64,000 nt of DNA from an uncultured Chryseobacterium sp. (GTDB lineage Bacteria > Bacteroidota > Bacteroidia > UBA10329): NCBI GenBank assembly GCA_964488095.1, contig CAZATP010000014.1:6553-70552 (forward strand). Reading direction: 5' to 3'. Below, one piece after another: positions 1,991-61,651 of the stretch. Both the position numbers and the translations under genes were made by a program. A model generated the notes under the pieces. That model saw only the letters and a program-made list of their open reading frames with translations. It was not told the DNA's origin and searched no databases. Positions within the stretch are counted from its first letter, which is position 1. Each line of letters starts with the position of its first letter.

Positions 1991-2068
1991 AGGTAGACAC
2001 CCGAGAAAGTTGCCGACAGCGTCCCCGTTATCGAATGTTAAAACCCATATTCGCGGCCATCACTTCCA

Positions 2069-2584: not shown

Positions 2585-3231
2585 GCGATCACCCTCGTCC
2601 TACGTACGATTATGTTGTGATTGAGGGCAACATAGGTTCCGGGAAAACCTCGTTGGCTCATTTGGTCGCCCAGCAATGGAATGCCCGGCTGATGCTGGAG
2701 CGCTTCAGCGACAACCCCTTTCTGCCAAAATTCTACGAGAACCCAGAGCGTCATGCGTTCACGCTCGAACTTAGTTTCCTCGCAGACCGCTACAATCAGA
2801 ATCGGGAAGAGCTGAGCAGGACAGACCTCTTCCAGCCCACTGTCGTCTCGGATTATTCGTTCGCTAAGTCCCTGATCTTTGCAGGCATCAACCTTCAGGA
2901 AGACGAGTTCGAACTCTACCGAACGCTCTTTCATATTATCCATGGCCGACTTCCAAAACCCGACCTCCTGGTTTACCTGCATTGCTCTGTGGACAAGTCC
3001 CTGAGGCAGATCCACAAGCGAGGGAGGTCTTTCGAGCAGGAAATCACCAGCGAATATCTAGCTCAGATAACTAAAGGCTACTTGGAGTTCTTCCGCCAGT
3101 TGAGCGATGTTCCCATTGTCATTCTGGACACGGAGCGCATTGACTTTGTGAACTCGGAACTTGATTTTGAGTCAGTGCTCTCCGTAATCGAATCACAGCA
3201 CCCTTTGGGGACAACCCGAATCGCGCTTTAG
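2569..3231 (+). CDS. Deoxynucleoside kinase (dAK/dGK family)
   Basis: P-loop GNIGSGKTS and an ERF-like motif (LERFSDNP). Overlaps the folK stop by 16 nt, which suggests translational coupling. Confidence 0.75.
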   Translation: MGSRMSDHPRPTYDYVVIEGNIGSGKTSLAHLVAQQWNARLMLERFSDNPFLPKFYENPERHAFTLELSFLADRYNQNREELSRTDLFQPTVVSDYSFAKSLIFAGINLQEDEFELYRTLFHIIHGRLPKPDLLVYLHCSVDKSLRQIHKRGRSFEQEITSEYLAQITKGYLEFFRQLSDVPIVILDTERIDFVNSELDFESVLSVIESQHPLGTTRIAL

Positions 3232-3359
3232 GGACGGGTTTCATATTTTTTTTTCGGCCCATGGTCAATTCGCCTCTTTGGTTACTTTTGCAGCGCGAAC
3301 GTCATTTGCTGACCACGTAAAATTCAAGTCAAACAATACGAACACTATCACGGGTAGAT

Positions 3360-4889
3360 ATGAAAAAGGGATTACTGCTGTTAACTGCGATTGCGTTCTT
3401 GAGTGCTCCGGCCTTCGCTCAGGAGAAAGAAGGCAAGAAGAAGGAGGGCAAAGAAGCCAAGCAAAAAAGTGGCAAAATTAAGTTCAACAAGTTCTCCATT
3501 GGCGGACATGGCGGCCACAACATCTTCTATGGTGACGTACGTCAGTATGATTGGTGGTTGACCGACAACGCAGAAGAGCGTTGGAACTTCGCTGGTGGAG
3601 GCTACGTGGCCTACCAGATTTCCCCTGTGTTCGGTGCCAACATCAATGTGATGGGCGGTACCCTTGGTGGTGTAAGAAGGCTTGCGGTTAATTCGCCTGC
3701 GGGCAACTCCACAGTACCTTCAAGTGAGTTCACGAACGTAAAGTTCAAGAACCACTACATTGATTACACGCTGAACTTCACCTTCAACTGGGTGAACCTC
3801 CTCTACTCCGACAGGACCAAAGAGAGACGCGTTACTTCTTACTTGACCGGTGGTATCGGATTCATCTCTTTCCGCTCGTTGAAGACAGGCCTGTATGACG
3901 ATTCATTCGTGAACAGCGTGGGCTACATCAATCAGGGAACAGAGAATTATAAGTCCCGCACCACTGAAACTGTATTCCCGATGGGTATAGGTGTCAAGTT
4001 CAGGCTTTCTCGCAGATTCGACCTTGGCCTCGAGTACACGCACAGGTTCACCTTCTCTGACAAGCTTGATGCAACTGTCGGAAATACTGGTGCCGATGAT
4101 AGCTACAGCTACGCATCTATGATTCTTGCCTTCAAATTCGGAAAGAATAAGAGCAGCCAAGAGTGGGTCAACCCTTTCCAGTCGCTCAACTCAAAGATGG
4201 AAGACATGGAGACCAACATGGCCGGACTTACTGTTGACAGCGATGGCGATGGTGTTTCTGATCTGTTCGATAAGGAGCCTAACACCCCTGCTGACATCGC
4301 AGTGGATGGTAGCGGCCGTGCATTGGATGCAGATGGCGATGGTGTGCCAGACCACTTGGACGCAGACCCTTTCACAGCCAAAGGTGCTCGTGTTGATGAG
4401 TCAGGCCGTGAGTTGGATTCTGATGGTGATGGTGTAGCAGACAGTCAGGATCTTGAGCCAAACACTCCGAAAGGTAATTTGGTGAACTTCCAGGGTAAGA
4501 CCATTGACGTGAAAGCAGGTGAGAAATCTGAATCCAGCTCCAGTTCATTTGCCAGCGGTGGAACTCTGATGTCCATCTACTTCAAAGTGAACAGCTCTCG
4601 CATCGACTACTGGAGCAGCTACGACAAACTGGCTGAGGTTGCCAAGGTGATGAAGGCTAATACCGGTGTGAAAGTCAACGTCATCGGACACGCAGACAAG
4701 AGTGGTGCTGAAGACTACAACAAGTCTCTTGCTGAGAAGCGTGCACAGTCGGCTGTTGATCACCTCGTGAAAGTGTACGGAATAGATGCTGGTCGCTTCA
4801 CCGTGGTGAGCGAAGGGACGTCCAATCCTCTGGCAAAATCTGATGATGCTCTCAACGTGAACAGAAGGGTTGACTTCATTGTGAAGTAA
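3360..4889 (+). CDS. OmpA-family outer-membrane protein with thrombospondin type-3 (calcium-binding) repeats
   Basis: Signal peptide and an N-terminal beta-barrel-like region. Repeated DxDGDGVxD motifs are followed by a C-terminal OmpA_C domain (NRRVDF). Confidence 0.8.
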   Translation: MKKGLLLLTAIAFLSAPAFAQEKEGKKKEGKEAKQKSGKIKFNKFSIGGHGGHNIFYGDVRQYDWWLTDNAEERWNFAGGGYVAYQISPVFGANINVMGGTLGGVRRLAVNSPAGNSTVPSSEFTNVKFKNHYIDYTLNFTFNWVNLLYSDRTKERRVTSYLTGGIGFISFRSLKTGLYDDSFVNSVGYINQGTENYKSRTTETVFPMGIGVKFRLSRRFDLGLEYTHRFTFSDKLDATVGNTGADDSYSYASMILAFKFGKNKSSQEWVNPFQSLNSKMEDMETNMAGLTVDSDGDGVSDLFDKEPNTPADIAVDGSGRALDADGDGVPDHLDADPFTAKGARVDESGRELDSDGDGVADSQDLEPNTPKGNLVNFQGKTIDVKAGEKSESSSSSFASGGTLMSIYFKVNSSRIDYWSSYDKLAEVAKVMKANTGVKVNVIGHADKSGAEDYNKSLAEKRAQSAVDHLVKVYGIDAGRFTVVSEGTSNPLAKSDDALNVNRRVDFIVK

Positions 4890-4919
4890 TCAGCCATCAA
4901 TAATCGATAAGGGCCGTTC

Positions 4920-4948
4920 CAGAATCTGGAGCGGCCCTTTCTATTTCA
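4920..4948. terminator. Bidirectional rho-independent terminator hairpin between convergent ompA-like and trmH-like genes
   Basis: agggccgttccag / aat / ctggagcggccct, a 13 bp stem with 1 mismatch, followed by a T-rich tract. Confidence 0.6.
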
Positions 4949-4968
4949 AAGAATAGGAGAATAAAGAC

Positions 4969-5520
4969 TTAAGCATCTGTCCTGAGCTCCATTCTAGCAT
5001 ACAGCTCCCATAGCACAATCCCAGAGCTTACTGCCACATTCAGTGAGTGCTTCGTTCCAGATTGTGGAATTTCCAGGAACTCATCACACAGGTCAAGTAC
5101 ATCCTGTGCCACACCGTGCACCTCATGTCCAAAAATCACAGCATACCGTACCCCATTCTGAAAAGAAAACTCCCGAGGCGAGATACTCCCCACCACCTGC
5201 TCAGCCGCTATGATGACGTAGCCCTGTTCTTTAAGGCTTTGTATGGCCTCTACCGTTGAAGACCAATGTTGCCAAGCCACCGTCTCAGTTGCTCCCAATG
5301 CTGACTTTTCAATTTCACGATTGGGAGGTGTGGCAGTAATGCCGCAGAGATAAAGCCGCTCCATAGCAAAGGCATCACAGGTGCGGAATATGGACCCAAC
5401 GTTGTGCAGACTCCGCACATTGTCCAGAATAACAGTAATAGGTAATCGCTTCACCTTGGCAAACTCCTCCTTTGAAGGCCTGCCCAAATCGTCCATTTTC
5501 AACTTCTTCACTTTCTCCAT
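4969..5520 (-). CDS. SpoU/TrmH-family RNA 2'-O-methyltransferase
   Basis: SPOUT-fold motifs: LDNVRSLHNVGSIFRTCDAF and a C-terminal SLNVAVSSGIVLWE. Confidence 0.75.
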   Translation of the reverse strand: MEKVKKLKMDDLGRPSKEEFAKVKRLPITVILDNVRSLHNVGSIFRTCDAFAMERLYLCGITATPPNREIEKSALGATETVAWQHWSSTVEAIQSLKEQGYVIIAAEQVVGSISPREFSFQNGVRYAVIFGHEVHGVAQDVLDLCDEFLEIPQSGTKHSLNVAVSSGIVLWELYARMELRTDA

Positions 5521-50814: not shown

Positions 50815-50852
50815 AAAAGCCCTTGGAGCAAAAGCTTCGGGGGCTTTTTTCT
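50815..50852 (+). terminator. Rho-independent terminator after pnp
   Basis: aaaagcccttggagcaaaagcttcgggggc followed by ttttttcttt. Confidence 0.55.
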
Positions 50853-50924
50853 TTAGCATTGCAGCATGGCCATCGTCTCCCCCTTCGGTGGCTACCTTTG
50901 CAGGGTCTCAATAGGTGCGAAGCC

Positions 50925-51140
50925 ATGGATATTCAAATTTCAGTGGATGACAGCAAGGCCAAGAAGTTCATTGCCTTTTTGAAGGAACTGGATTTTGTGG
51001 TGGTCCGGCCCTTATTCAAAGAAGCATCCCCTAAGGCAAGAAAGACCCCGAAATTCTCCTATTTTGGTTCCTGTCCGGATTGGGATGTGGACGCTCAGCA
51101 ACTCCGTCAGTCCGGTAATCGGGACAAGGCCCAATGGTGA
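50925..51140 (+). CDS. Small putative antitoxin (VapB-like) upstream of a PIN toxin
   Basis: 72-aa ORF starting at atg 50925. It overlaps the PIN gene start by 7 nt (ATGGTGA arrangement). Confidence 0.45.
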   Translation: MDIQISVDDSKAKKFIAFLKELDFVVVRPLFKEASPKARKTPKFSYFGSCPDWDVDAQQLRQSGNRDKAQW

Positions 51141-51505
51141 TTGCAGATACGGACATCTTCATCGCAGCACTGAGAAACCACTCCATTGCAAAGAGCCTTC
51201 TTGAAAAGTATGGCTCTGCGGTCAGTCTTTCCGCAGTGACCGCAATGGAACTCTATGTGGGTGCCAAGTCAGCTGAGAAGAAGCAATGGGTTGCCGCCAT
51301 TCTCGATGATCACGAGCTGATACCCTTAGACAGGGCCACAACCCTTACAGCCATCAAGCTTGTGAAACAGTACAATTCTCATTCGCGGTCACTGTTCATT
51401 GCCGATGCGTTGATTGCGGCAGCATGTTTGGAGCACTCGGCCTCACTCCTCACTTTCAATACTGGTGATTTTGATTTCATCAAGGGCCTAAGACTGGTGA
51501 AGTGA
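51134..51505 (+). CDS. PIN-domain toxin (VapC-like)
   Basis: 123 aa. Has the N-terminal acidic motif IADTDIFIAAL, a downstream LFIADALIAAA block and a C-terminal TFNTGDF, consistent with the PIN Asp tetrad. Confidence 0.65.
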   Translation: MVIADTDIFIAALRNHSIAKSLLEKYGSAVSLSAVTAMELYVGAKSAEKKQWVAAILDDHELIPLDRATTLTAIKLVKQYNSHSRSLFIADALIAAACLEHSASLLTFNTGDFDFIKGLRLVK

Positions 51506-51548
51506 GGTTTTTACACGAAAATCATCGTCCCACTATCCATTCACGTTC

Positions 51549-52196
51549 ATGGCCATCATCTCCCCCTCCATCCTTGCAGCAGACTTCGCCCGATTGGGTG
51601 AGGAACTCGAAATGATCAACCGCAGCGAGGCCGATTGGCTTCACGTGGACGTGATGGACGGAGTGTTCGTGCCCAATATCTCGTTCGGTTTCCCATTGAT
51701 GGAGGCGATGAAGAAGCATTGCACCAAGCCGTTGGACGTGCATCTGATGATTGTGGACCCCGACCGCTATCTGGCCGACTTCAAGAATGCAGGGGCCGAC
51801 TGGCTGACGGTGCACTATGAGGCGTGCCCGCATCTGCACCGCACAGTTCAGGCCATCCACGAACTGGGCATGAAGGCAGGTGTGGCGCTTAACCCGCACA
51901 CGCCTGTGAGCGTGCTGAAAGACATCATCCACGATCTGGACCTGGTGCTCATCATGAGCGTGAACCCCGGTTTCGGAGGGCAGAAGTTCATTCCCCGCGC
52001 CATGGACAAGGTCTATGCCCTGCGCCAGATGATAGACCGGGCCGATGCAAAGACCCTCATAGAAGTGGATGGCGGGGTGAACAGCACCAATGCCGTTGGA
52101 CTGCGCGACATGGGCGCACATGCCCTGGTGGCAGGCAGTTTCGTGTTCCGGTCAGAGGACCCGGCCGCTACCATCGCAGCGCTCCGCAAACTCTAA
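51549..52196 (+). CDS. rpe: Ribulose-phosphate 3-epimerase
   Basis: MAIISPSILAADFARLGEE, HVDVMDG, and a TIM-barrel RPE signature. Confidence 0.9.
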   Translation: MAIISPSILAADFARLGEELEMINRSEADWLHVDVMDGVFVPNISFGFPLMEAMKKHCTKPLDVHLMIVDPDRYLADFKNAGADWLTVHYEACPHLHRTVQAIHELGMKAGVALNPHTPVSVLKDIIHDLDLVLIMSVNPGFGGQKFIPRAMDKVYALRQMIDRADAKTLIEVDGGVNSTNAVGLRDMGAHALVAGSFVFRSEDPAATIAALRKL

Positions 52197-53398
52197 TTGC
52201 TGCCGTTCAGGTAGTCCTGCAAATACCCGAAGTAGCGCGTGAGCTCCCCGTCATTGCAGATAGTGGCACGCTCCAACACGCGCTCCGCATCGCCCTCCAA
52301 GAACAACGGGATGATGCGCTCCGCCAACTCTGCACCGAAACCCGTTGACGCATCGGCAGGAATCTCGCAGGGCAGGTTGTCCACTGCCATGATGGTGATG
52401 CTGTTCTCATCCCGCGGGTCTGTCTCCACACCCGTGAGCCGGTCGTAGCCATACACAGGCTGTTCGATGGAGGATGAGCGCAGCGTGGTGGGCACAGAAC
52501 CGTTGATATCGCACGTGATGTCGGCAATGACACGGACACGGAAATCATCCTTGCGCACATCCGCTGGCTCAAAGAAACGGCCCGACCTCCCATCCCAGAA
52601 ATGCGCGGAGATGAACACATCGGCCTTGGAAAGGAATTTCCGGAAGGTGCATTCATATCCCGCAGAATCGCGGATGAACGCCTCCACGCTCTCGGGCGGC
52701 CTACCGCCCCTCTCGTGGTAGTCCAGAATATCGGCATTGGCCCAGACGGGATGGTCGTAGGTCTTTGAAAGGAAATCTGCCACAGGAACCTCGGTGACAC
52801 CTGCGGCCGTGAGGGTCTCACGCACGCCCGTGGCCACCTTGCCTCCTCCCGAAACGATGATACGCTCCCGGTTGAGCTTCACTCTCCTCAACTCCTGATG
52901 CATCTCGGCCACGCCCGAACACTGATAGGCGGGTTTCAGAACGAAGCTCCCGCTGCGCAGACCCACGGCATTCAGCGCATTATAGGCGCCCACGATACCC
53001 GCATACTTCCCAAAACCCAGCAGGCGCCTGCCGAAACTGTCGGTGAGGCACTCGTAGTCGATGAGCCGGATGTTCTTACGGACGACCTCCTGCAGCAACC
53101 GCTGATTGTGGCGCTGCTTCTTGATGGTATGCGAGAAGAACATCATGGTGCTGCCCTCCACCAGCATGGCATAGGGCACTTCCTTCACCCCCAGGATCAG
53201 GTCGCAACCCGTCAGTTCATCCACCACGGATATGCCCGCCTCCAGATAGGCGGCATCGGAGAAACAGCGCACATCGCTGCTCTGCACCTCGATGGACAGC
53301 TGCGGAAAACGCCTCATCAGCGCAGCGCAATGCTGCGGGGCAAGGGGTGTGCGTTTGTCTGCCGGGGCCTTTCCCTCACGGATGATACCGATCTTCAT
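52193..53398 (-). CDS. Alanine dehydrogenase/PNT-domain oxidoreductase (saccharopine/lysine-ketoglutarate-reductase-like)
   Basis: N-terminal MKIGIIREGKAPADKRTPLAP (AlaDh_PNT_N) and a central NAD-binding GGGKVATG motif. Confidence 0.65.
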   Translation of the reverse strand: MKIGIIREGKAPADKRTPLAPQHCAALMRRFPQLSIEVQSSDVRCFSDAAYLEAGISVVDELTGCDLILGVKEVPYAMLVEGSTMMFFSHTIKKQRHNQRLLQEVVRKNIRLIDYECLTDSFGRRLLGFGKYAGIVGAYNALNAVGLRSGSFVLKPAYQCSGVAEMHQELRRVKLNRERIIVSGGGKVATGVRETLTAAGVTEVPVADFLSKTYDHPVWANADILDYHERGGRPPESVEAFIRDSAGYECTFRKFLSKADVFISAHFWDGRSGRFFEPADVRKDDFRVRVIADITCDINGSVPTTLRSSSIEQPVYGYDRLTGVETDPRDENSITIMAVDNLPCEIPADASTGFGAELAERIIPLFLEGDAERVLERATICNDGELTRYFGYLQDYLNGSN

Positions 53399-53434
53399 GC
53401 TCTGCGCCTGTCTCTGTTGCCAATGACCGCAAAA

Positions 53435-53567
53435 CTAAGCCCCAATCACCTCCCCATCCTCCATATACACCAGCAGCCCCTGCACCTTCGTGTGGCCGAG
53501 GGCGGTGAGGGCATCGCGGTAGGCCACTATCTGACCGTGGCGTTCGGGGCGTTTGCCGCCCGTCTTG
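53435..53567 (-). pseudogene. Displaced 3'-end fragment of the UvrD/PD-(D/E)XK helicase-nuclease gene (direct repeat copy A)
   Basis: The minus-strand frame reads ...CKTGGKRPERHGQIVAYRDALTALGHTKVQGLLVYMEDGEVIGA-stop. This is nearly identical to the C-terminus of the intact gene that ends at 54915. Confidence 0.7.
53447..53567. repeat. Direct repeat copy A (121 bp, about 92% identical to 54927-55047)
   Basis: The shared core is cacctccccatcctccatatacaccagcagccc(c/t)tgcaccttcgtgtggccgagggcggtgagggcatcgcggtaggcc, with the same arrangement of coding frame in both copies. Confidence 0.85.
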
Positions 53568-53656
53568 CAGGCAGGTGCTATCACCGTGTAGCCGCCCGCC
53601 ATCAAGACCTCGGCACAATTCGTATCCCATTTCCGTTTCGGCCTATCTTTGAAGGC

Positions 53657-53863
53657 ATGAAGCCCGCACAGACACTCATCAGCAAAATCGAGTCGCTGAC
53701 CCCTCTTGAGATGGAGCAGCTGGACCGCTATCTGGCCGAGATGATATCAGGCAGGAAACCGCGCAACGGCAAGAAGCTCAAGCAAGGCTGGGCAGGCAAA
53801 CTGGACGATGCCATGTCCGCCATCGAGCTTCAGAAGAAGGCTTTGGAATGGAGGGGCAGCTGA
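53657..53863 (+). CDS. Small putative antitoxin (68 aa) upstream of the PIN toxin in the islet
   Basis: atg at 53657. It shares a reading frame with a longer spurious ORF and overlaps the PIN gene start by 16 nt. Confidence 0.45.
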   Translation: MKPAQTLISKIESLTPLEMEQLDRYLAEMISGRKPRNGKKLKQGWAGKLDDAMSAIELQKKALEWRGS

Positions 53864-54264
53864 GGTATCTGGTTGATACCAACGTGTGGTTGGAGCGGAT
53901 GCTCGGACAGGACAATGCATCTGCCGCTGCGAAGTTCTTCGACACCGTTACCACCGACCGCATCGTTATCTCTGATTTTGCGCTGCATTCCATCGGGGTC
54001 ATCCTTCACAGGTTGAAGCGGCTCGACCTGCTGACCGAGTTCATTGAAGACCTTTTCATTCACGGAAGTGTTGAGCAGGTCGCAATCCGACCGGAAGACC
54101 TGAAGGCTGTTGCGCGGAATGTGCGTGAACAAGGACTGGATTTCGATGATGCCTATCAGATGACGGCCGCACACATCCATGGTCTGACCATCGTAACCTT
54201 CGACAGGGATTTCAAGGGCAAAGGCGTGAAGGCCCTTTCTCCGTTGGAGGCGATCGGCAAGTAA
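53848..54264 (+). CDS. PIN-domain toxin (VapC-like), islet cargo
   Basis: 138 aa with LVDTNVWLE N-terminal acidic motif, an internal IVISDFALH block and a C-terminal TFDRDF. Confidence 0.65.
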   Translation: MEGQLRYLVDTNVWLERMLGQDNASAAAKFFDTVTTDRIVISDFALHSIGVILHRLKRLDLLTEFIEDLFIHGSVEQVAIRPEDLKAVARNVREQGLDFDDAYQMTAAHIHGLTIVTFDRDFKGKGVKALSPLEAIGK

Positions 54265-54450
54265 TCCAATCCCTTCTTTTCGCACGCCCGGAACCACCAA
54301 CTCCAGAAAGAACCGGGCCTCATGCCGCGCATCCCCCCGTTCGGATAATGTATTTAGGTTTGGAAACCGTCTGCATTTATCCCCCTCATTCGGTGGGACA
54401 GGGATGACCGGAGAGGCAGAGAGTCACACCGATAAATGAGTTAATGGACA

Positions 54451-54840
54451 TTGCTTAATCTCTACCAACGAGCTATGAAAATCTTCCTCGGAATCATTGT
54501 AATCGTGTTTTTTTTCTCTTGTGGGAATCGCGTAGAAAAGGAGGAATTACCTGGAAGATATGTTTTTAGCCATTGGGGAAAGGATACTTTAGATCTGAGA
54601 TCCGATGGCACATATCATCACCACACATTTCAGGATAGCCAACTTTTAGAAAACAGGGGAACGTGGATATTGAATAACAACGGTACCGAAATAACTTTTG
54701 CGAACTTTTCATCCTTAACTGATGGCACGGGACCTGGGAACTGGATTTCAAGACTAAGGGTTCAAGGTGGAAAAGTTCACTTGATGTATGCCTCCGATAT
54801 CAATGCTTACTACATCAAAACTGAGCAGCGAATGGAATAG
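54451..54840 (+). CDS. AT-rich small lipoprotein of unknown function, islet cargo
   Basis: Lipobox FFFSCGN after a signal peptide. The gene GC, about 40%, is far below its flanks. Confidence 0.5.
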   Translation: MLNLYQRAMKIFLGIIVIVFFFSCGNRVEKEELPGRYVFSHWGKDTLDLRSDGTYHHHTFQDSQLLENRGTWILNNNGTEITFANFSSLTDGTGPGNWISRLRVQGGKVHLMYASDINAYYIKTEQRME

Positions 54841-54914
54841 CAAACCCAGACGCAAGGTTCCGCACCTGACGACTATTGGGTGACAGCCTGCGCTGAGCGG
54901 GACATAGCGGTTCC

Positions 54915-57900
54915 TCACCCCACCACCACCTCCCCATCCTCCATATACACCAGCAGCCCTTGCACCTTCGTGTGGCCGAGGGCGGTGAGGGCATCGCGGT
55001 AGGCCGCTATCTGGGTGCGGTGCTCGGGGCGTTTTCCGCCCGTCTTGTAGTCGAGCACGTAGGTCATGTCGGGCGTGGTCACCACACGGTCGGGGCGTAG
55101 CCACTGCCCGCCAGGCATCTGTATGTCGGCCTCGGTGCGGATGGTCACGGTGTCTGAGAAGAGCCGTCCCAGTTCGGGCCTGTCAATGATGCTTAGGATG
55201 CGCTGGCGCAGGCCGTCCGCTCCGCTTTCGGGTATCCTGCCGTCCTCCACCAGCCGCTGCACGGCAAGCGGCACATCGGCAGCGGTGCGCACGTGGGCCA
55301 GCGCATCATGTACAAGGATGCCGAAGTCGCGGGCCGCACTGTCGCCCCACTCGCGCAACGATGGACGGGCAATGGCGATGCGCGACATCCAATCGGGCCC
55401 GCCCGTTTCTCGAAGCTCAAGACGCTGTGTCTCCTCTTCCTTATGCGGGCCGGGGGCCTCCCGCTCGCCTATGGTAAGGCTGTTCTCCGCTATCACATGG
55501 CCCAGTTTGGGAAGGGTGCGGTAAAGGAAACCCGCAGCCGAATTGGTAGGCTTCTCCGCAGTCGCCTCATCGGCCTTCACCCGCCCGCTGATGTAGAGCC
55601 GCTCCTGCGGCCGTGTGAGGGCCACGTAGAGCATGTTGAACATGTCCATGGTGGTCAGTTCGCGCTCACGTTCGAGGGCGGGTTCGTGGTCGGTGTCCTC
55701 CAGTTCCTTCGTGGCCTTCACGTAGAGGCGGTTGAGGGGCTGCGCCTCCGGGTCGTTCACTTCCAGCCAGATACTGTTGCGCGAGGTGTCGAGGTCATAG
55801 TCGGCAAAGGGATGGATGACCACGGGAAACTCCAGCCCCTTGCTCTTATGCACGGTGAGGATGCGGATGGCATCGCGGTTCTCGGTGAGGGCGATGCTGC
55901 GCTTGCCGCGATGCTCGGCCCAGTGTTCGAGGAAACCGTTGAGGTCGTTGCCCTCCTTGCGGGCATATTCCAGCACCTCGTCCATGAAATAGACGAGATG
56001 CGGCTGCTTGATGTGCCCCAGCACATGGTGGCGCATGGCCTCGAACAGCGAGAACAGTGGCAGCTGACGCAAGCGCGAGAGGCGCAGTTCGGGATAGAGC
56101 TCCTTCAGAAGAACCTTGAGGCCCCTGTCCTTCTCCGCGCCCACCATGGCGAGGCGTGCGCTGACGAGGCGGGTCTCCTCGCGGGCCATGCAGAGGTGCT
56201 GCACCAGCTCGGCCTGGTTGGTGGTGTCGTGCGGGGCGATGATGAACACCGCCAGATTGACCAGCAGCCGCACATAGGGAGAACTGTTGATGAGCAGCGA
56301 CTCACTGCTCACCACGCTGTGGCCGCTCTCTATGAGGAACTGGGCGGTGGCGATGCCTTTCTCGTTGGAGCGACAGATGATGGCGATGTCGCCCGGGGCG
56401 TAGCCGTCCGCGATGCACTCCTCCACCCATTCCAGCACCTGCTCCAGTGTGTCGGGCACATAGTCGGGATAGCTGCGCTGCCCTTCGGGAACGGGCATGA
56501 AACGCATCGCCACCCTGCCGCCCGTCTTTCCATCGGGGGTGAGCTGCGCGACTCCGTCATACATCACGCGCAGCGTTTGGGGCATCTCGTCCTGCATGGC
56601 CGCGAAGAGTCGGTTGTTGAAGTCAACGATGGTGGGCCGAGTGCGGAAATTGTGGCGCAGGGCGTGTTCCTGCACATTGGTGACGAGGCTCCTTTCGCGC
56701 TGCGCGAGGGTGACATCGAGCTGCGGGTCGGCCTCCAGATGGCCGCGCATGTATGCGGTGCGATGCACGGTGGGCAGCTCCACGAACTGCTGCACCTCGC
56801 CCCCGCGCCAGCGGTAGATGCTCTGCTTGGCATCGCCCACCACGAGGCAGAGGCCGTCCGTGGCGAGGCTCTCATCAATGAGCGGCAGCATGTTGAACCA
56901 TTGCAGCACGTTGGTGTCCTGAAACTCATCCACCAGAAAATGATGGTAGCGATGGCCCAGCCGCTCGTAGATGAACGGGGCCTGCTCCTTCATCACCACG
57001 CTGCTCACGAGGTGGTTGAACTCCCCGATGTGGAGCACCTCCTGCTCCTGCTGCAGGTCGCGGACGATCTCGGCCATGCGGTCGAGCAGGGCGATGCCAT
57101 AGATGTTCTTTACGATAAGTCCCAGCCGCTTCATTCGTTCGATGCGGGAGAGGATGCTGCCATAGGCGTCCATCATGGCGGGAACAAGGGCATCTATCAC
57201 AGATTTCTCTTGGGCCTTGGCCTTGGAACCGTGCCATTTATCAGCTTCCAGATTCTTGAGCACCGTGGCGTTGGGCATCTCCAGCCTTCCATTCACAACC
57301 TTGACAAAATAGCCCGCCATACCATCCTTTCCTCCTGCAAAATGGCCCACTTCCAGCCCTGCGGCCGCTATCTGTCGCAGGATGTCGTTGGCGGTGGCCT
57401 GCGCCTGTGCCTCATCGGCCTTCACCAGCCCGACCAGTTTCCTGCGGATGGCGATGAGGTCGCTCATGCCCACGTCCTTCATGCCCGCGAGGTGGAAACG
57501 GCCCTCCTCGTTGAAGATGGTGGCGGCCATGTCGGTCAGCACCTGGTCTATGCTCCAGCTCTTCTCGTCCTCGGCCTGCGCCAGCGAGAGGTCTATAAGG
57601 GCATCGGTGACGCCCTTGTCCACGCCCACCTGCCCGAGGAGGCGGTCGGTCATGGCGGTGATGAGGCGGTCGGTGTCCAGCTCCACCTCGAAGTTCACGG
57701 GCAGGCCGAAATCCTGCGCGAAGGTGCGGATGACGCGGTGCGTGAAGCTGTCGATGGTGCTGATGCCGATGTCGGCATAGTTGTGCAACATGCTGCGCAG
57801 CACGCGCTCGGACTTCTTCCTGAGGTCGTCTGTGCCGATGCCCAATTCCTCGCGCAGCAGGTTGGCCATGGGGCCATCGGGGATGGCGGGGTCGGCCAGT

Positions 57901-58082
57901 TCGCGGAGGGTGTTGAGCACGCGGGCCTTCATCTCCTCTGCCGCCTTGTTGGTGAAAGTGATGGCAAGGATGCCGCGATAGGCGGTGTCGCCCGTGCTGC
58001 CGAGGGCGATGCGCAGGTATTCCTTCACCAGTGTGAAGGTCTTGCCCGACCCAGCGGACGAACGGTAGATCTTGAAGGACAT
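54915..58082 (-). CDS. UvrD/AddA-like ATP-dependent helicase fused to a C-terminal PD-(D/E)XK (RecB-like) nuclease
   Basis: Walker A AGSGKTFTLV at the N-terminus. UvrD helicase blocks (VDEFQDTN, a Q-motif-like SIYRWRGG, VHKSKGLEF). The C-terminus carries the D...(DMTYVLDYKTG) nuclease motif. The start is atg at 58082 (MSFKIYRSS). Confidence 0.85.
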   Translation of the reverse strand: MSFKIYRSSAGSGKTFTLVKEYLRIALGSTGDTAYRGILAITFTNKAAEEMKARVLNTLRELADPAIPDGPMANLLREELGIGTDDLRKKSERVLRSMLHNYADIGISTIDSFTHRVIRTFAQDFGLPVNFEVELDTDRLITAMTDRLLGQVGVDKGVTDALIDLSLAQAEDEKSWSIDQVLTDMAATIFNEEGRFHLAGMKDVGMSDLIAIRRKLVGLVKADEAQAQATANDILRQIAAAGLEVGHFAGGKDGMAGYFVKVVNGRLEMPNATVLKNLEADKWHGSKAKAQEKSVIDALVPAMMDAYGSILSRIERMKRLGLIVKNIYGIALLDRMAEIVRDLQQEQEVLHIGEFNHLVSSVVMKEQAPFIYERLGHRYHHFLVDEFQDTNVLQWFNMLPLIDESLATDGLCLVVGDAKQSIYRWRGGEVQQFVELPTVHRTAYMRGHLEADPQLDVTLAQRERSLVTNVQEHALRHNFRTRPTIVDFNNRLFAAMQDEMPQTLRVMYDGVAQLTPDGKTGGRVAMRFMPVPEGQRSYPDYVPDTLEQVLEWVEECIADGYAPGDIAIICRSNEKGIATAQFLIESGHSVVSSESLLINSSPYVRLLVNLAVFIIAPHDTTNQAELVQHLCMAREETRLVSARLAMVGAEKDRGLKVLLKELYPELRLSRLRQLPLFSLFEAMRHHVLGHIKQPHLVYFMDEVLEYARKEGNDLNGFLEHWAEHRGKRSIALTENRDAIRILTVHKSKGLEFPVVIHPFADYDLDTSRNSIWLEVNDPEAQPLNRLYVKATKELEDTDHEPALERERELTTMDMFNMLYVALTRPQERLYISGRVKADEATAEKPTNSAAGFLYRTLPKLGHVIAENSLTIGEREAPGPHKEEETQRLELRETGGPDWMSRIAIARPSLREWGDSAARDFGILVHDALAHVRTAADVPLAVQRLVEDGRIPESGADGLRQRILSIIDRPELGRLFSDTVTIRTEADIQMPGGQWLRPDRVVTTPDMTYVLDYKTGGKRPEHRTQIAAYRDALTALGHTKVQGLLVYMEDGEVVVG
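54927..55047. repeat. Direct repeat copy B (inside the intact 3' end of the helicase-nuclease gene)
   Basis: See copy A. Differences cluster in a ctgaccgtggcgttc / ctgggtgcggtgctc patch. Confidence 0.85.
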
Positions 58083-58140
58083 GGGGGAAAGGTAGAATGG
58101 GGAAGGGGAAATAGGAAAATGGAAAATAGGGAAATGGTGC
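58083..58140. repeat. Purine-only degenerate GGAAA / AATGG repeat tract in the helicase leader
   Basis: atgggggaaaggtagaatggggaaggggaaataggaaaatggaaaatagggaaatgg. On the helicase sense strand this is a C/T-rich polypyrimidine 5' leader. Confidence 0.5.
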
Positions 58141-58195
58141 CGTGACAGCACGACCTGTCTCCAACCTTAGACCTTCACACAGAACCCTCTGCTCC

Positions 58196-59908
58196 CTACC
58201 GAATGAGACTGACCCTCCGCACGGCAGTGCCTGCCACTGTTTCGAAGCGCACCATGTAGAGCCCGCTGGGCAGGGAGCTGATGTCCATGCGCAGGCGGCC
58301 ATCGGTGGTCTGCTGGCTGTGGAGCAGGCGGCCGGTCATGTCGATGAGGGTCACATTGGCAGGCATGCCAAGGGTTCCCTGAACATCGAACACGCCCGCG
58401 GTGGGATTGGGGAAGACCTTCATTTCCTGCGGGGCAGCGGCCTCTTCCATCCCAACGGGCACGGTGAAGGTCACATCAGTGCACCACTGGTTGTCATCGG
58501 AGAAGATGTCCAAATGGTCGTTGGGACTGATGGCCACGAGGCAGATGGTCTCCGAATGAACACTGTTCTCTGTCATTGGCCCATTGATGAGATAAAGTCC
58601 GTTGAACGGTATCGTTGCAGTGTCACCGGGTGACAGGTTCAGACCGTCTGCAATGATAGTCTGGCCTGGTGTGCCACAGAAGGCCATGCCGTGCTGAGCG
58701 AAGTATGAAAGCAGCACTCTATCGAGGGTGTTTCCTGAATGGTTGACCACTTTCACCGTTGCGTGGGCGCGAAAAGTGTAGATAGCACCGAAGGCAGGGG
58801 AGTAATACTGGCTCGATGATATCGAATCCACTGTGCCGAGCAGTTCCACATCGTCCTCATGGGCCACGGTGGTGCCATCCATCCGGTAGCTTTTCATCCT
58901 ACCCCCGAAACGGCCATGATGCCCTACGGAGCTGGCGGTCATCACAAGGCCGTCCCGGTAGGCCATAGAACCTGCTCCCGTGAAGAGCACTTGTTGCAGA
59001 TCCGTCTCACCGATGGCAAGAAGCGCACCTCCTGCTGAGAGCCAGACCTCCTCATTGGCATCGACAAAACCGTATGGAGCGACCGAGGTGGGGATGCTGA
59101 TCCAATCCTCCAACTCCAACTGATCGGAAAGCACTGCGATCATGGTGGTGGTCAGTGCCAGCACCCGGTCGCCATCCTTTCGGATATCGATGATGTACTC
59201 CGCATTGTCCAAGCTCACTGATGCCAGCACTGTGCCGTCCATGTGGGTTCGGAAAACCGCGCTACCGGCACCCACGAGCAAGGTGGTGTCGTTCTCCCAT
59301 CGCATGCAATGGACAGGCTGGGCCGGGGCCAGCCAACGGTGCAGCACCTCACCGTCATCGTTCAGGATGATGATGCTGTCCTCGGATGCGATCGCATGGT
59401 TGACGCTCGCACCATCTGCAAGACGGTCGAAAATACCCGCATGACTTCCTGGGATATGATTGAAATCTGAGAAGGTGAACCCCCATTGCCACATTGGCTC
59501 ACCAGCATGGTCAAGCCGAATCACTGCCCCCTGCCCCGACACTACATCACATTCGTCATACACTCCTACAATGAGCACGCCCTCATCATGCAGAACCGAA
59601 ACCTGCTTGGCCTTATTGAGTGAAGTGTTGCCCCAGTAGGTGTTCGGCATCAGAATATGCCCGAATCTCCAAAGGGGTGTTCCGTTAGCAGAGCATTTGG
59701 CCAAAAAGTATGTGTCCGTTGGCTGACCACCGGAGACATTCCCCCTACCTGCAAAAAGCCACGCATCCTCACCAATGACAAAGACCTCATCATATTGGAC
59801 GATGTCCGTGTGCTGGTCCACACGGTCGATCGGGGTCTGCCCGAAACTGACGGTCGGTAGCAGGAGTGCCCAAAGCATCAATCTCAATAGGTCCCGTTCC
59901 ATCGTCAT
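58196..59908 (-). CDS. T9SS substrate of unknown function (570 aa) with type-A CTD
   Basis: Signal peptide and a C-terminal VFPNPTAGVFDVQ...MTGRLLHSQQTTDGRLRMDISSLPSGLYMVRF...RRVSLIR. Confidence 0.65.
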   Translation of the reverse strand: MTMERDLLRLMLWALLLPTVSFGQTPIDRVDQHTDIVQYDEVFVIGEDAWLFAGRGNVSGGQPTDTYFLAKCSANGTPLWRFGHILMPNTYWGNTSLNKAKQVSVLHDEGVLIVGVYDECDVVSGQGAVIRLDHAGEPMWQWGFTFSDFNHIPGSHAGIFDRLADGASVNHAIASEDSIIILNDDGEVLHRWLAPAQPVHCMRWENDTTLLVGAGSAVFRTHMDGTVLASVSLDNAEYIIDIRKDGDRVLALTTTMIAVLSDQLELEDWISIPTSVAPYGFVDANEEVWLSAGGALLAIGETDLQQVLFTGAGSMAYRDGLVMTASSVGHHGRFGGRMKSYRMDGTTVAHEDDVELLGTVDSISSSQYYSPAFGAIYTFRAHATVKVVNHSGNTLDRVLLSYFAQHGMAFCGTPGQTIIADGLNLSPGDTATIPFNGLYLINGPMTENSVHSETICLVAISPNDHLDIFSDDNQWCTDVTFTVPVGMEEAAAPQEMKVFPNPTAGVFDVQGTLGMPANVTLIDMTGRLLHSQQTTDGRLRMDISSLPSGLYMVRFETVAGTAVRRVSLIR

Positions 59909-59920
59909 TAGTTCAATAGG

Positions 59921-61651
59921 TCACGGGTGGATAAGGTTCACCCTGCGCACCACACTGCCCGCGCTGCTATCGTACCGCACCAGATACACTCCGGTGGGGA
60001 ATGCGCTGATGTCCATGCGGAGGCGGCCATCGGTGGTCTGCTCGCTGTGGAGGAGGCGACCTGTCATGTCGGTTATGGATACGGTGGCCTCCACCCTATC
60101 GGCAGCGATCACGTCAAAGATTCCGTTGGTAGGATTGGGATAGATACGCAGGTCGGCCAGGCGGGCATCCGAAATGGAGGTGATAGCATCCAGCACTTCG
60201 AACTTCCACCAGCCCTGTGGCGCGGTGATGGGCCTCACCTGCTCCTTGCCGTTGTTGGCCTCTGCGTGGATGTAGTAGAACACCTCCTCGCCCGCTGCCT
60301 GATAGGGGATGTGGCCCGTCCAAGTGGCATTGACGGGGTCGGTGAGGGTCATGGGCACGGGCTGATAGCCCACTGCGGTGTCGATGCTCCAATAGACCTG
60401 TGCCGACTGGATGCCTGATGCATGGCGGATGAGGGCGTTCACGGCATAGTCCTGTGTGACGTAGGGCGTGTCGTCCAGCGGTTGGTGCGAGATGAGCAGC
60501 GGGTCGTTGCTCTGCACCGCCTTGGTGATGCAATGGATGGCCCCGCTGGCCGAGATGATGGTGTTGCAGTCCAGCCCCACCACCTTGTAGCCCGGCAGTG
60601 CCTCGCGGTAGATGCGCAGGGCGGTGGTGTCATACTGTTGTGTGTAGGTGGGCACGAGGATGGTCTTGTTGACGAACACCGAGTTGGTGTAGGTGCGATA
60701 GTCGCCCCCGTTGTTGGGATACTGGTTCCCATCGGGCGGCATGGGGATACGGATGACCTTGTAGGGCGTGCCGTAGACCGACATGAAATTGTTGAGCACA
60801 TACTGGAGGTTGGCCTCTATCTGCGGGCCATCGGCCACCCCGGCAGGGTATTGGCCCACGAGCAGGGTCTCCTCGTCCAGCAGTTTCATGTGCATGTCGA
60901 TGTGGTGGATGCCGTCATAGGGCAGCGTATTCATCTTTATATAGCGGTCAATGCCCATGAAATCGGAGAGGATGTCATCGATCTGGCCTTCGGTCTTGGC
61001 ACTTACCCCGTAAGGATTGCCCGGCTCGTTCTCCTCCAGAATCAGCTCGGAGGCGAAGGCGGTACCGAAACCATCGACCATGAAATTGCCGCCCGTGTTC
61101 ACCAGATCGGTGGGGGATACGGTGGTCTCATACAGCGGGATGTCGAGCAATTCTGACAGGGCCACCGGGATCACATCGTCCAACGGGCGCGGGCGGTTGT
61201 AGATCCAGTCCACCCACATCAGCTCGCCCACTTCATCGTCATAGATGTTCCACTGGCCGTAATCGCGGAACCAGACGCTGTTGCTGGGTTCGTTCACAAA
61301 GACCACGTTCTGCGTGTTCACCCCGCCCTGAGCAAGATACGTGCTCACATCGTTGGCGAATTGAGTCACGATATAGACCGTCACCTCTTCCTTGGCATGG
61401 CGCACAATATTGCGCAGCAGCACTTGATACGCGCTGGTCCACCGGATGCAGAGACCATCGCTCTCCTCCCACTCTGCCGGGGTGCGCACAGGCCCGGCAG
61501 GCGGTGTGGTGAATCCTCTGGAAGAAAGCGCAGGCCGTGCGAGGGGCAGCATGGTGCGCTCCTGTTCCGTGAGGCCCTTCGGGAGGTCCTGTGCATGGGA
61601 ATGGGCGGCAAAAAGCAGAAGGAAGGGCAGAAGGAGGAGTGATTTCCGCAT
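59921..61651 (-). CDS. Porphyromonas-type peptidylarginine/agmatine deiminase homolog carrying a T9SS CTD
   Basis: Signal peptide, a deiminase fold with catalytic-Cys motif GAIHCIT, and a C-terminal CTD LRIYPNPTNGIFDV...MTGRLLHSEQTTDGRLRMDISAFPTGVYLVRY...RRVNLIHP. Confidence 0.65.
   Translation of the reverse strand: MRKSLLLLPFLLLFAAHSHAQDLPKGLTEQERTMLPLARPALSSRGFTTPPAGPVRTPAEWEESDGLCIRWTSAYQVLLRNIVRHAKEEVTVYIVTQFANDVSTYLAQGGVNTQNVVFVNEPSNSVWFRDYGQWNIYDDEVGELMWVDWIYNRPRPLDDVIPVALSELLDIPLYETTVSPTDLVNTGGNFMVDGFGTAFASELILEENEPGNPYGVSAKTEGQIDDILSDFMGIDRYIKMNTLPYDGIHHIDMHMKLLDEETLLVGQYPAGVADGPQIEANLQYVLNNFMSVYGTPYKVIRIPMPPDGNQYPNNGGDYRTYTNSVFVNKTILVPTYTQQYDTTALRIYREALPGYKVVGLDCNTIISASGAIHCITKAVQSNDPLLISHQPLDDTPYVTQDYAVNALIRHASGIQSAQVYWSIDTAVGYQPVPMTLTDPVNATWTGHIPYQAAGEEVFYYIHAEANNGKEQVRPITAPQGWWKFEVLDAITSISDARLADLRIYPNPTNGIFDVIAADRVEATVSITDMTGRLLHSEQTTDGRLRMDISAFPTGVYLVRYDSSAGSVVRRVNLIHP

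What the first reader, a model, noticed from the sequence alone, without database searches (positions are those of the whole stretch)
53435..55063. Miniature genomic islet inserted in the 3' end of a helicase-nuclease gene, with the displaced gene end still readable
Two 121-bp direct repeats of about 92% identity sit at 53447-53567 and 54927-55047. Copy B is the functional C-terminal coding end of the 1056-aa UvrD/PD-(D/E)XK helicase-nuclease. Copy A, read on the same strand, still encodes an in-frame ...KTGGKRPERHGQIVAYRDALTALGHTKVQGLLVYMEDGEVIGA-stop tail. That is the signature of an integrative element that brings a replacement copy of its target gene's 3' end, as tRNA-targeting islands do, except that here the target is a protein-coding gene. 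The 1.36 kb between the repeats carries a VapB-like/PIN toxin-antitoxin pair and a lipoprotein gene at about 40% GC against about 58% background. No integrase is present, so this is either a decayed or non-autonomous element, or one mobilised in trans.
Basis: seen in the sequence. Interest (0 to 1): 0.72.

Follow-up and report, generated by a model that had tools for sequence, protein, structure and literature searches.

The report
Toxin-antitoxin islet inserted in helicase gene tail
A 1.4-kb piece of foreign DNA carrying a toxin-antitoxin pair and a small lipoprotein gene sits in the very end of a DNA-repair helicase gene, flanked by two copies of that gene's last 121 bases; sister strains without it show it is a real insertion, but of a broadly known kind.

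Summary
Window 53447-53567 and 54927-55047 are direct repeats (112/121 identical), both in frame on the minus strand.

Comparison with conspecific genomes (about 93-98% identical) shows an insertion polymorphism:
- One relative (L092) has an empty site. The helicase ends ...EDGEVIGA* and AlaDh starts 36 bp later. A second contig has the same geometry.
- Occupied strains all end ...EDGEVVVG*, reading three codons into the islet. They keep the native ...VIGA* end as a relic beside AlaDh.
- Cargo varies. The window has intact vapBC plus a low-GC ORFan lipoprotein. L088 has vapB plus a deleted vapC. L089 and L091 carry a 324-aa secreted protein in place of the lipoprotein.
- No recombinase is present in any variant.

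The same architecture recurs twice:
- A second vapBC pair in this window (50885-51547) is flanked by a 20-bp repeat of the rpe start and is absent in L092.
- A Chlorobiota genome (L045) has a UPF0175/DUF3368 pair flanked by a 105-nt copy of its own helicase tail.

However, targeting the 3' end of a protein-coding gene is well known (e14/icd, IMEs, CIMEs). Integrase-free "insertion with long target duplication" has been described for restriction-modification genes. The insertion enzyme is unresolved.

Verdict: new member of a known kind, moderate interest.

The parts
54915..58082 (-). RecB-like (AddA-type) helicase-nuclease gene, 1055 aa; the target gene
   Evidence: ORF. Pfam UvrD-helicase, UvrD_C and PDDEXK_1. 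NCBIfam 'RecB-like helicase' PRK13909 models, below their curated cut-offs. The same 1055-aa product is on record for the source contig (P0179).
54927..55047 (-). Repeat copy B: codons K-T-G-G...E-D-G-E-V of the functional helicase tail, including the QxxxY nuclease motif
54915..54926 (-). Islet-supplied end of the helicase ORF: GTG GTG GGG TGA (V-V-G-stop), replacing the native I-G-A-stop
   Evidence: Alignment of all junctions. Identical in the window, L088, L089 and L091, and absent from the empty site L092. Helicase alleles split into ...VIGA and ...VVVG types.
54428..54910 (+). Variable cargo slot. Here it holds the ORFan lipoprotein gene 54475-54840 (121 aa, lipobox FFFSC, GC 0.40)
   Evidence: The window and L089 share sequence only up to 54911 and again from 54427. 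L089 and L091 carry a 314/324-aa signal-peptide protein here, and L088 carries about 80 bp. The lipoprotein has no Pfam or NCBIfam hit and no homologue apart from its own sequence. The AF2 model is unusable.
54265..54427 (+). Conserved islet backbone between vapC and the cargo slot. It lies upstream of whichever cargo gene is present, so it may be a promoter or leader (inferred)
   Evidence: 90% identical in L089, L090 and L091. Both cargo genes start about 45 bp beyond it, in the same orientation.
53848..54264 (+). vapC (PIN-domain toxin, 138 aa), intact here
   Evidence: Pfam PIN E=5e-15. A 300-bp internal in-frame deletion (window 53887-54186) is present in L088, L089, L090 and L091. An 80%-identical vapBC pair lies in an unrelated context in L087.
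53657..53863 (+). vapB-like antitoxin candidate (68 aa); overlaps vapC by 16 nt
   Evidence: ORF. No Pfam or NCBIfam hit. Conserved as a pair with vapC in L087 and retained in all occupied strains.
53568..53656 (.). Islet-side flank of copy A (89 bp). Identical over the 70 nt compared in all occupied strains, and unrelated to the helicase sequence upstream of copy B
53447..53567 (-). Repeat copy A: non-functional helicase-tail copy. It is called as a 55-aa hypothetical ORF (53435-53602) in public annotations
   Evidence: The relic ORFs form one protein cluster (P0160, P0185, P0186).
53399..53446 (-). Native end of the helicase (ATT GGG GCT TAG = I-G-A-stop) plus the 36-bp spacer to AlaDh. It is contiguous with the helicase in the empty site
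   Evidence: L092 has helicase 1092-4259 and AlaDh 4296-5501, with the same sequence.
53447..53479 (.). 33-bp block identical in both copies (= 54927-54959), at the gene-distal edge of the repeat. It is the most likely region of the crossover (inferred)
   Evidence: The L089 copy B keeps clade-2 substitutions up to position 86 of 121. Logan contigs break exactly at the k-mers of this block.
52193..53398 (-). AlaDh/PNT-family dehydrogenase gene; the native downstream neighbour of the helicase

Best explanation
This is a small strain-variable genomic islet without a recombinase, built on a VapBC toxin-antitoxin pair. It entered the extreme 3' end of the RecB-like helicase-nuclease gene by one reciprocal (Campbell-type) crossover. 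A circular DNA carrying a copy of the helicase tail recombined with the chromosomal tail.

Shown:
- The product is helicase body, tail copy B, three islet codons plus a stop, cargo slot, vapC and vapB, tail copy A, the native last three codons plus stop, then AlaDh.
- The helicase stays intact. Its QxxxY nuclease motif lies inside the duplicated part, and only I-G-A becomes V-V-G.
- The second tail is a relic.
- An empty site exists, cargo differs between strains, and no recombinase is present.

Inferred:
- The crossover lay in the last 33 nt or so of the repeat.
- The enzyme was either an integrase since lost (a CIME-like remnant) or host RecA acting on 121 bp of homology (insertion-duplication). 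These two cannot be told apart here.
- The islet is now passively inherited. It is moved between strains by homologous recombination of its flanks and can be lost by recombination between its repeats.
- VapBC addiction explains why the toxin-antitoxin pair is the part that persists.
- The slot next to the helicase stop exchanges small low-GC secreted or lipoprotein genes.
For: - Repeats and reading frame.
- Empty site with the predicted junction: L092. A second contig has a 36-bp gap between a partial gene and AlaDh.
- Five of 13 helicase alleles in the species end ...VIGA, and six end ...VVVG or ...VVVGE.
- Both islet junctions are the same in independent assemblies from NCBI, ENA, JGI and Logan.
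- Cargo variation sits inside constant junctions.
- No recombinase was found in the islet, in the 20 large window ORFs scanned, or in the precomputed Pfam lists of the relatives.
- In L089 copy B is clade-2-like and copy A clade-1-like, which places a junction in the last 35 nt or so.
- Islet backbone divergence between strains (about 2-3%) matches that of the adjoining flank, which indicates co-inheritance rather than recent hopping.
- In most occupied strains the toxin gene carries an in-frame deletion while vapB is kept, a typical decay pattern.
- Parallel cases exist: the second vapBC pair with a 20-bp repeat of the rpe start, empty in L092, and L045 with a 105-nt tail repeat around a UPF0175/DUF3368 pair.
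- Precedents: e14/icd-icdC (PMC13626634); IMEs and CIMEs (PMC5704250).
Against: - No circular form, attP-bearing relative or integrase-bearing version of the islet was found. The searches covered metagenome, viral, plasmid and phage collections.
- Three independent toxin-antitoxin islets all lack any trace of an integrase, which is awkward for the 'decayed element' sub-version.
- The islet sequence next to copy B is not conserved between the window and L089 beyond about 10 nt after the stop, so no conserved attP arm exists there.
- The crossover position rests on one strain (L089). Later homologous recombination, which is rampant at this locus, could also have produced that pattern.
- The empty sites could be secondary losses through repeat recombination rather than ancestral states. 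This does not affect the conclusion that the unit is an insertion/deletion bounded by the repeats.
Confidence: 0.55

Rival explanations
1. [quoted passage not shown] 2000 and Furuta et al. 2010. An addiction module with no mobility genes enters as linear DNA at staggered breaks, or by two-ended invasion, and 20-121 bp of the target is copied on both sides. Both repeat copies are then host-derived.
For: All of Furuta's operational criteria are met for this islet and for L045. The insert is an addiction module, is shorter than 20 kb, has repeats longer than 30 bp, has one repeat copy in a conspecific genome and carries no mobility genes (PMC2853133; data). Repeat lengths differ between the three islets (20, 105 and 121 bp). 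Some published restriction-modification cases also overlap gene 3' ends.
Against: The mechanism is itself unknown. It was tentatively linked to DNA breakage by restriction enzymes, which PIN RNases do not provide. In L089 copy A does not match the resident helicase clade, so a further recombination step is needed. The products are indistinguishable from Campbell-type insertion-duplication.
Confidence: 0.25
2. A still-active non-autonomous element, mobilised in trans by a tyrosine or serine recombinase encoded elsewhere in the genome.
For: The repeats look like att sites. The junctions are precise and identical in all occupied strains. The helicase alleles show four different C-terminal endings after the same ...EDGEV position (IGA, VVG, VAA, VGV). 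This could mean repeated use of one crossover point.
Against: There is no recombinase in the 64-kb window or in 20 kb of the relatives. Islet divergence tracks flank divergence. No conserved arm lies beside copy B. The islet was not found anywhere else.
Confidence: 0.12
3. An old local tandem duplication or rearrangement of the helicase end with no foreign insertion, or an assembly artefact.
For: None beyond the existence of the repeat itself.
Against: An empty site has exactly one copy. The interior differs in GC and content between strains. The vapBC pair has an 80% relative in another context. Five independent assemblies and sample sets give identical junctions.
Confidence: 0.03

Closest known systems
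e14 / phage 21 integration in E. coli icd, leaving the icdC C-terminal pseudogene (Hill et al. 1989, as described in PMC13626634)
   Same: The insertion is in the 3' end of a housekeeping protein gene. The gene stays functional by reading into element-supplied sequence. A displaced in-frame C-terminal fragment lies at the far end. Loss of the element by recombination gives a chimeric but functional gene.
   Different: e14 is a 15-kb prophage with its own integrase and inducible excision. Here the islet is 1.4 kb and has no recombinase or phage genes, and only three codons are certainly replaced.
CIMEs (cis-mobilizable elements): decayed ICE/IME remnants that keep attL and attR but have lost their integration and transfer genes. 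Also IMEs that target the 3' ends of protein genes (PMC5704250)
   Same: [quoted passage not shown] It has no integrase. A toxin-antitoxin pair is frequent cargo. Variable content next to the att site that adjoins the gene resembles accretion.
   Different: No related autonomous element with the same site is known. Typical att repeats are 8-60 bp and this one is 121 bp. No internal third att copy marks an accretion. Three independent toxin-antitoxin islets show no integrase remnant.
'Insertion with long target duplication' of restriction-modification gene complexes (Nobusato et al. 2000; Furuta, Abe & Kobayashi 2010, PMC2853133)
   Same: A compact addiction module is inserted with long direct repeats of variable length (46-423 bp in that work; 105-121 bp here). 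There is one repeat copy in a sister genome and no mobility genes. Some cases overlap gene 3' ends.
   Different: The cargo here is a type II toxin-antitoxin pair (PIN RNase), not a DNA-cutting restriction-modification system. In the searchable library the phenomenon is not described for toxin-antitoxin pairs. The lineages here are Bacteroidota and Chlorobiota.
Insertion-duplication (Campbell-type) integration of non-replicating circular DNA by RecA, as used in gene-disruption genetics (own knowledge)
   Same: The product has the same structure: the homologous segment is duplicated on both sides of the insert, and repeat length equals the length of homology carried.
   Different: That is a laboratory construct. 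A natural source of circles, such as pop-out between the repeats, and a route of transfer are hypothetical here.

Membership tests
Site-specific integrative element (prophage / ICE / IME type) at a gene 3' end | [quoted passage not shown] | tested here: met
Site-specific integrative element (prophage / ICE / IME type) at a gene 3' end | Unoccupied site (attB) with a single repeat copy in related genomes | tested here: met
   L092. The geometry of a second contig agrees. ...VIGA alleles are listed.
Site-specific integrative element (prophage / ICE / IME type) at a gene 3' end | Element-encoded tyrosine or serine recombinase | tested here: not met
   The islet ORFs are a PIN toxin, a 68-aa partner and a lipoprotein. 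None is present in L088, L089, L090 or L091, nor in the 20 large window ORFs scanned.
Site-specific integrative element (prophage / ICE / IME type) at a gene 3' end | Excision to a circular form with attP | not testable with these tools
   This needs raw reads or PCR. Pattern searches for the junctions in the metagenome and viral collections found nothing.
CIME (cis-mobilizable element) | Retains attL and attR but lacks integration and transfer genes | tested here: met
CIME (cis-mobilizable element) | Derived from, and mobilisable by, a related ICE or IME that uses the same att site | tested here: inconclusive
   No integrase-bearing occupant of this site was seen in five occupied strains or in 80 helicase loci. 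The collections are far from exhaustive.
Insertion with long target duplication (Nobusato 2000 / Furuta 2010 criteria) | Insert contains the addiction module, is under 20 kb and has no other mobile-element genes | tested here: met
   1.36 kb with vapBC plus one cargo gene. The criteria are quoted. They were written for restriction-modification genes, so the cargo class differs.
Insertion with long target duplication (Nobusato 2000 / Furuta 2010 criteria) | Flanking direct repeat longer than 30 bp that aligns to a single copy in a conspecific genome | tested here: met
   121 bp, with a single copy in L092.
Insertion with long target duplication (Nobusato 2000 / Furuta 2010 criteria) | Both repeat copies derive from the recipient's own target sequence | tested here: inconclusive
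   In L089 copy A differs from the resident helicase clade. Later recombination could explain this.
VapBC type II toxin-antitoxin system | PIN-domain toxin preceded by a small overlapping antitoxin gene | tested here: met
   Pfam PIN E=5e-15 with a 16-nt overlap to a 68-aa ORF. The NCBIfam VapC models hit only below cut-off. The antitoxin has no family hit. The pair is conserved in L087. Activity was not tested.
Transposon / insertion sequence | Transposase, terminal inverted repeats and a short fixed target duplication | tested here: not met
   No transposase. No inverted repeat at the islet ends. The duplication is 121 bp.

The most novel reading that the evidence does not exclude
Toxin-antitoxin pairs in these lineages may be self-sufficient mini-mobile units that need no dedicated recombinase. 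In this reading they pop out as circles by recombination between their long flanking repeats. They then re-enter empty-site genomes by a single crossover on the carried piece of target gene, and they persist through addiction. This would be the toxin-antitoxin counterpart of the 'virus-like life cycle' proposed, but never shown, for restriction-modification units. The tail of the RecB-like nuclease gene would be a recurrent landing site, since it is used independently in Bacteroidota and Chlorobiota.
Probability: 0.15. Interest if true: 0.7.

Novelty: new member of a known kind. Interest (0 to 1): 0.42.

Why it matters
How chromosomal toxin-antitoxin pairs move is poorly understood. They are strain-variable everywhere, yet they rarely sit next to mobility genes.

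This locus offers a clean natural series in one uncultured Flavobacteriales species: an empty site, an intact islet, a decayed islet and a cargo-swapped islet. A second toxin-antitoxin islet of the same build lies 2 kb away, and an independent parallel exists in another phylum. All three have target-gene repeats and no recombinase.

This makes it possible to test whether the mechanistically unexplained 'long target duplication' route described for restriction-modification genes is a general entry route for addiction modules. The test would use junction reads in existing metagenomes and a systematic scan of toxin-antitoxin pairs.

For genome annotation there are two lessons. The 55-aa 'hypothetical protein' beside AlaDh is a helicase-tail relic. 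The helicase C-terminus (...VVVG or ...VIGA) is a marker of islet occupancy.

Tried and rejected
- **GTDB species representatives.** A scan with the helicase returned 80 loci, the closest about 47-57% identical, with no AlaDh synteny and no empty site. It was useful only for finding L045.
- **Protein search with the helicase C-terminus.** The best hits were 59-64% identical and lie in a different context.
- **Metagenome DNA pattern scans.** Two scans, one for the degenerate tail peptide and one for the copy-B junction, both found nothing. The first pattern also missed known relatives because of single amino-acid differences.
- **Viral-contig pattern scans.** Three scans found nothing.
- **Plasmid and phage BLAST of the islet.** No match.
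- **Third, internal tail copy.** This would mark accretion of two elements. None was found above shuffled controls.
- **Shared core between the 121-bp repeat and the 20-bp repeat of the second islet.** Not significant: score 11 against a null 95th percentile of 13.
- **The same VapC subfamily downstream of other helicase homologues.** None found.
- **Sensitive protein-level scan for more relic tails in the 67 helicase loci scanned.** Only L045 and the close relatives were found. The L012 hit is the AddB-like partner's own DYKTG motif.
- **Exhaustive HMMER search with the relic ORF.** It returned only the relic itself, one frameshifted tail fragment (P0167) and repetitive unrelated proteins.
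- **Structure prediction of the lipoprotein.** pLDDT was 42.7, so no fold search was made.
- **Rfam and tRNA scans.** No RNA gene lies at the site.
- **Sliding-window identity.** This was meant to detect a recombination tract around the islet. The locus is mosaic everywhere, so there is no clear signal.

Full report
**1. Observation**

The repeat is real. The repeat finder reports one two-copy family of 131 nt (53440-53570 and 54920-55050, 90% identical) with 1480-bp spacing. Every other repeat in the surrounding 5 kb is 25 nt or shorter.

It contains two exact blocks, 53447-53479 and 53481-53525, and eight of the nine mismatches lie in 53526-53555.

Copy B is part of the minus-strand ORF 54915-58082 (1055 aa). 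This protein has UvrD-helicase, UvrD_C and PDDEXK_1 domains, and its best NCBIfam matches are 'RecB-like helicase' models, below their cut-offs. Copy A reads in the same frame and ends ...EDGEVIGA*, 36 bp before the AlaDh-family gene 52193-53398.

Three genes lie between the copies on the plus strand:
- a 68-aa ORF (53657-53863);
- a PIN-domain toxin that overlaps it by 16 nt (53848-54264, Pfam PIN E=5e-15);
- a 121-aa lipoprotein-like ORF (54475-54840).

Only the lipoprotein gene is low in GC (0.40, GC3 0.43). The toxin-antitoxin pair is 0.54-0.57 and the flanking genes 0.59-0.63.

**2. Related genomes**

Species representatives in GTDB were too distant to help. The best helicase identity was about 47-57%, with no AlaDh synteny.

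The useful route was the 90%-identity cluster of the AlaDh protein. Its members could be looked up on their contigs, and they gave a series from one species at about 93-98% nucleotide identity to the window.

| Locus | Source | Arrangement |
|---|---|---|
| L092 | Logan SRR25744159 | Empty site. Helicase of 1055 aa (1092-4259), then AlaDh (4296-5501) after 36 bp |
| Contig of P0130 | ENA/JGI | No DNA available, but a partial gene ends 36 bp before AlaDh |
| L088 | GCA_030153465.1 | Both repeat copies, with only about 520 bp between them. vapB is kept, vapC has a 300-bp in-frame internal deletion, and there is no lipoprotein gene |
| L089, L091 | ENA | Same junctions and the same deleted vapC. 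A 314/324-aa signal-peptide protein (GC 0.45) sits where the window has the lipoprotein gene |
| L090 | JGI | Same copy-A junction and the same deleted vapC. The contig ends inside the cargo gene, so the cargo is only partly seen |
| L085 | Logan, another sample | The window's arrangement, at 98% identity |

**3. Junctions**

I aligned all copies with their flanks.

- The empty site has the helicase-side flank of copy B, one tail, and then the 3' flank of copy A (ATT GGG GCT TAG, spacer, ATG of AlaDh).
- All occupied strains share GTG GTG GGG TGA GGAA after copy B.
- All occupied strains share an identical islet flank (70 nt compared) before copy A.

So the native helicase ends ...VIGA*. Occupied helicases read three codons into the islet and end ...VVVG*. 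The native end is stranded beside AlaDh.

Among 13 helicase alleles of the species, five end VIGA, six end VVVG (one of them VVVGE), one ends VVAA and one ends VVGV.

Those were no size variation with conserved genes of normal GC, and copies out of frame.

**4. What is replaced, and where the crossover lay**

The data suggest a narrower exchange.

L089's helicase belongs to a divergent clade (88.7% identity, against 95-97% for its flanks). Its copy B carries clade-specific substitutions up to position 86 of 121. At the protein level these are shared with a clade-2 allele that ends VIGA (P0184). Its copy A, in contrast, resembles the copy A of the other strains.

A recombination junction therefore lies in the last 35 nt or so of the repeat. 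That stretch includes the 33-bp block identical in both copies. What is certainly islet-supplied is three codons plus the stop.

This inference is moderate only. Identity profiles are mosaic across the whole locus, so later homologous recombination could have produced the same pattern.

**5. Anatomy of the islet**

The constant parts are:
- the 12 nt after copy B;
- the 89-bp flank before copy A;
- vapB;
- vapC or its remnant;
- 54265-54427.

The variable part is 54428-54910. It holds a lipoprotein gene (window), a 324-aa secreted protein (L089, L091) or about 80 bp (L088). Both cargo genes start about 45 bp beyond the conserved 54265-54427 segment, in the same orientation. That segment may therefore serve as their promoter or leader (inference).

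The lipoprotein has no homologue other than itself in 5.8 billion proteins and matches no family. Its single-sequence structure model is unusable.

An 80%-identical vapBC pair lies in an unrelated context in L087. The similarity there is limited to the two genes, so the toxin-antitoxin pair is itself a module.

There is no internal third tail copy, no terminal inverted repeat and no RNA gene.

**6. No recombinase**

None is encoded in the islet, in any strain variant, in the 20 large ORFs of the window that were scanned, or in the precomputed domain lists for about 20 kb around the site in L088 and L089.

The islet or its junctions were not found in the metagenome, viral, plasmid or phage collections.

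Divergence of the islet backbone between strains (about 2-3%) equals that of the adjoining AlaDh flank. This argues for co-inheritance rather than recent independent movement.

**7. Recurrence**

- *In this window.* The second vapBC pair (vapB2 50925-51140, vapC2 51134-51505) is also an insertion. It is flanked by the 20-bp repeat CATGGCCATC[G/A]TCTCCCCCT (50865-50884 and 51548-51567), which is the start of rpe. L092 has one copy and no toxin-antitoxin pair.
- *In a Chlorobiota MAG (L045).* The helicase there is about 27% identical. A UPF0175/DUF3368 pair lies between the helicase stop and a 105-nt copy of the helicase's own tail (91% identical, one frameshift).

No further cases were found among the 67 helicase loci scanned, 59 of them with more than 1.5 kb downstream.

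**8. Mechanism**

The product is that of a single reciprocal crossover between the chromosomal tail and a tail copy carried on circular DNA (Campbell-type insertion-duplication). I take this as the most likely origin (0.55). Who catalysed it is open: an integrase since lost (a CIME-like remnant) or host RecA acting on 121 bp of homology.

The main rival (0.25) is 'insertion with long target duplication'. This was described for restriction-modification genes, with 46-423-bp repeats and no mobility genes (PMC2853133). The islet meets all of its operational criteria. Its mechanism is unknown, and its products cannot be distinguished from the Campbell-type product with these data.

An element still mobilised in trans is less likely (0.12). 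A tandem duplication or an assembly artefact is excluded.

Persistence of the toxin-antitoxin pair as the minimal surviving content fits addiction. Loss of the toxin with retention of the antitoxin in most strains fits subsequent decay.

**9. Comparison with known systems**

Integration into the 3' end of protein-coding genes, with the gene kept intact by the repeat, is textbook for IMEs, ICEs and prophages (PMC5704250). The closest analogue for the relic tail is e14 in icd, with the icdC pseudogene (PMC13626634). Recombinase-free remnants flanked by att sites are called CIMEs.

Three features are less usual here:
- the very small size;
- a toxin-antitoxin pair as the backbone;
- three independent recombinase-free cases with repeats of 20, 105 and 121 bp.

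This is the pattern reported for restriction-modification units. In the searchable literature it is not reported for toxin-antitoxin pairs. That is a statement about this library only.

**10. Verdict**

I class this as a new member of a known kind, with moderate interest (0.42). Its main value is as a clean natural series for testing how addiction modules enter chromosomes.

Noticed in passing
window 50865-51567: The second vapBC pair (vapB2 50925-51140, PIN vapC2 51134-51505, GC about 0.48) is itself a 683-bp insertion. It is flanked by the 20-bp direct repeat CATGGCCATC[G/A]TCTCCCCCT, which is the first 7 codons of rpe. Strain L092 has a single copy and no toxin-antitoxin pair. No recombinase is present.
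   Followed up: yes
L045:4504-5746 (JAUVIG010000205.1, Chlorobiota MAG): An independent parallel in another phylum. A UPF0175 antitoxin plus a DUF3368 PIN-like toxin lie between the stop of a distantly related helicase (about 27% identical) and a 105-nt copy of that helicase's own tail (91% identical, frameshifted). A nucleotidyltransferase gene follows the relic.
   Followed up: partly
window 53526-53543 and 55006-55023 (positions 25-43 of the repeat): A hypervariable patch (codons E-H-[R/H/Q/S]-[T/S/G/L]-Q-I-[A/V]) is seen in the functional tails, the relic tails and the 13 helicase alleles. Relic copies of different strains differ by 9-10 of 121 nt, while the adjacent islet backbone differs by only about 2-3%. 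The relics may be overwritten by recombination with native tails of empty-site strains, but this is unexplained.
   Followed up: partly
window 53887-54186 (vapC interior): L088, L089, L090 and L091 share the same 300-bp in-frame deletion of vapC, leaving a 35-aa remnant, while vapB stays intact. The window, L001 and L085 keep a full-length toxin.
   Followed up: yes
window 58140-59931: The T9SS-tailed 570-aa gene (58196-59908) upstream of the helicase is absent in L092, apparently through recombination between paralogous Por_Secre_tail ends. In L089 a DUF4468 gene takes its place. L088 has an extra 1.2 kb with two small genes (81 and 158 aa) between it and the helicase, with no flanking repeat.
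   Followed up: partly
window about 50841-50850 (pnp terminator region): L089 and L090 carry a 1.1-kb insertion with a 242-aa Laminin_G_3 protein just outside the second toxin-antitoxin islet. The whole pnp-helicase stretch is a patchwork of small strain-specific insertions.
   Followed up: no
window 55000-55500: The 3' part of the helicase gene (nuclease domain), next to the insertion site, is the most divergent segment between strains: 84-92% identity, against 94-99% for the neighbouring segments. L089 carries a distinct helicase clade (88.7%) within flanks that are 95-97% identical.
   Followed up: partly
P0167 (Logan contig, 71 aa): This is a frameshifted helicase-tail fragment from another strain. 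It has helicase-body sequence on its 5' side and a native-type (VIGA frame) 3' end. It may be a pseudogenised helicase at an empty site. The context could not be fetched.
   Followed up: no
NCBI assemblies GCA_041445565.1 and GCA_041447075.1: The lipoprotein gene and a 96%-identical vapC each sit alone on contigs of 514 and 550 bp. This suggests the islet breaks assemblies, through strain heterogeneity or repeats, in those MAGs.
   Followed up: no
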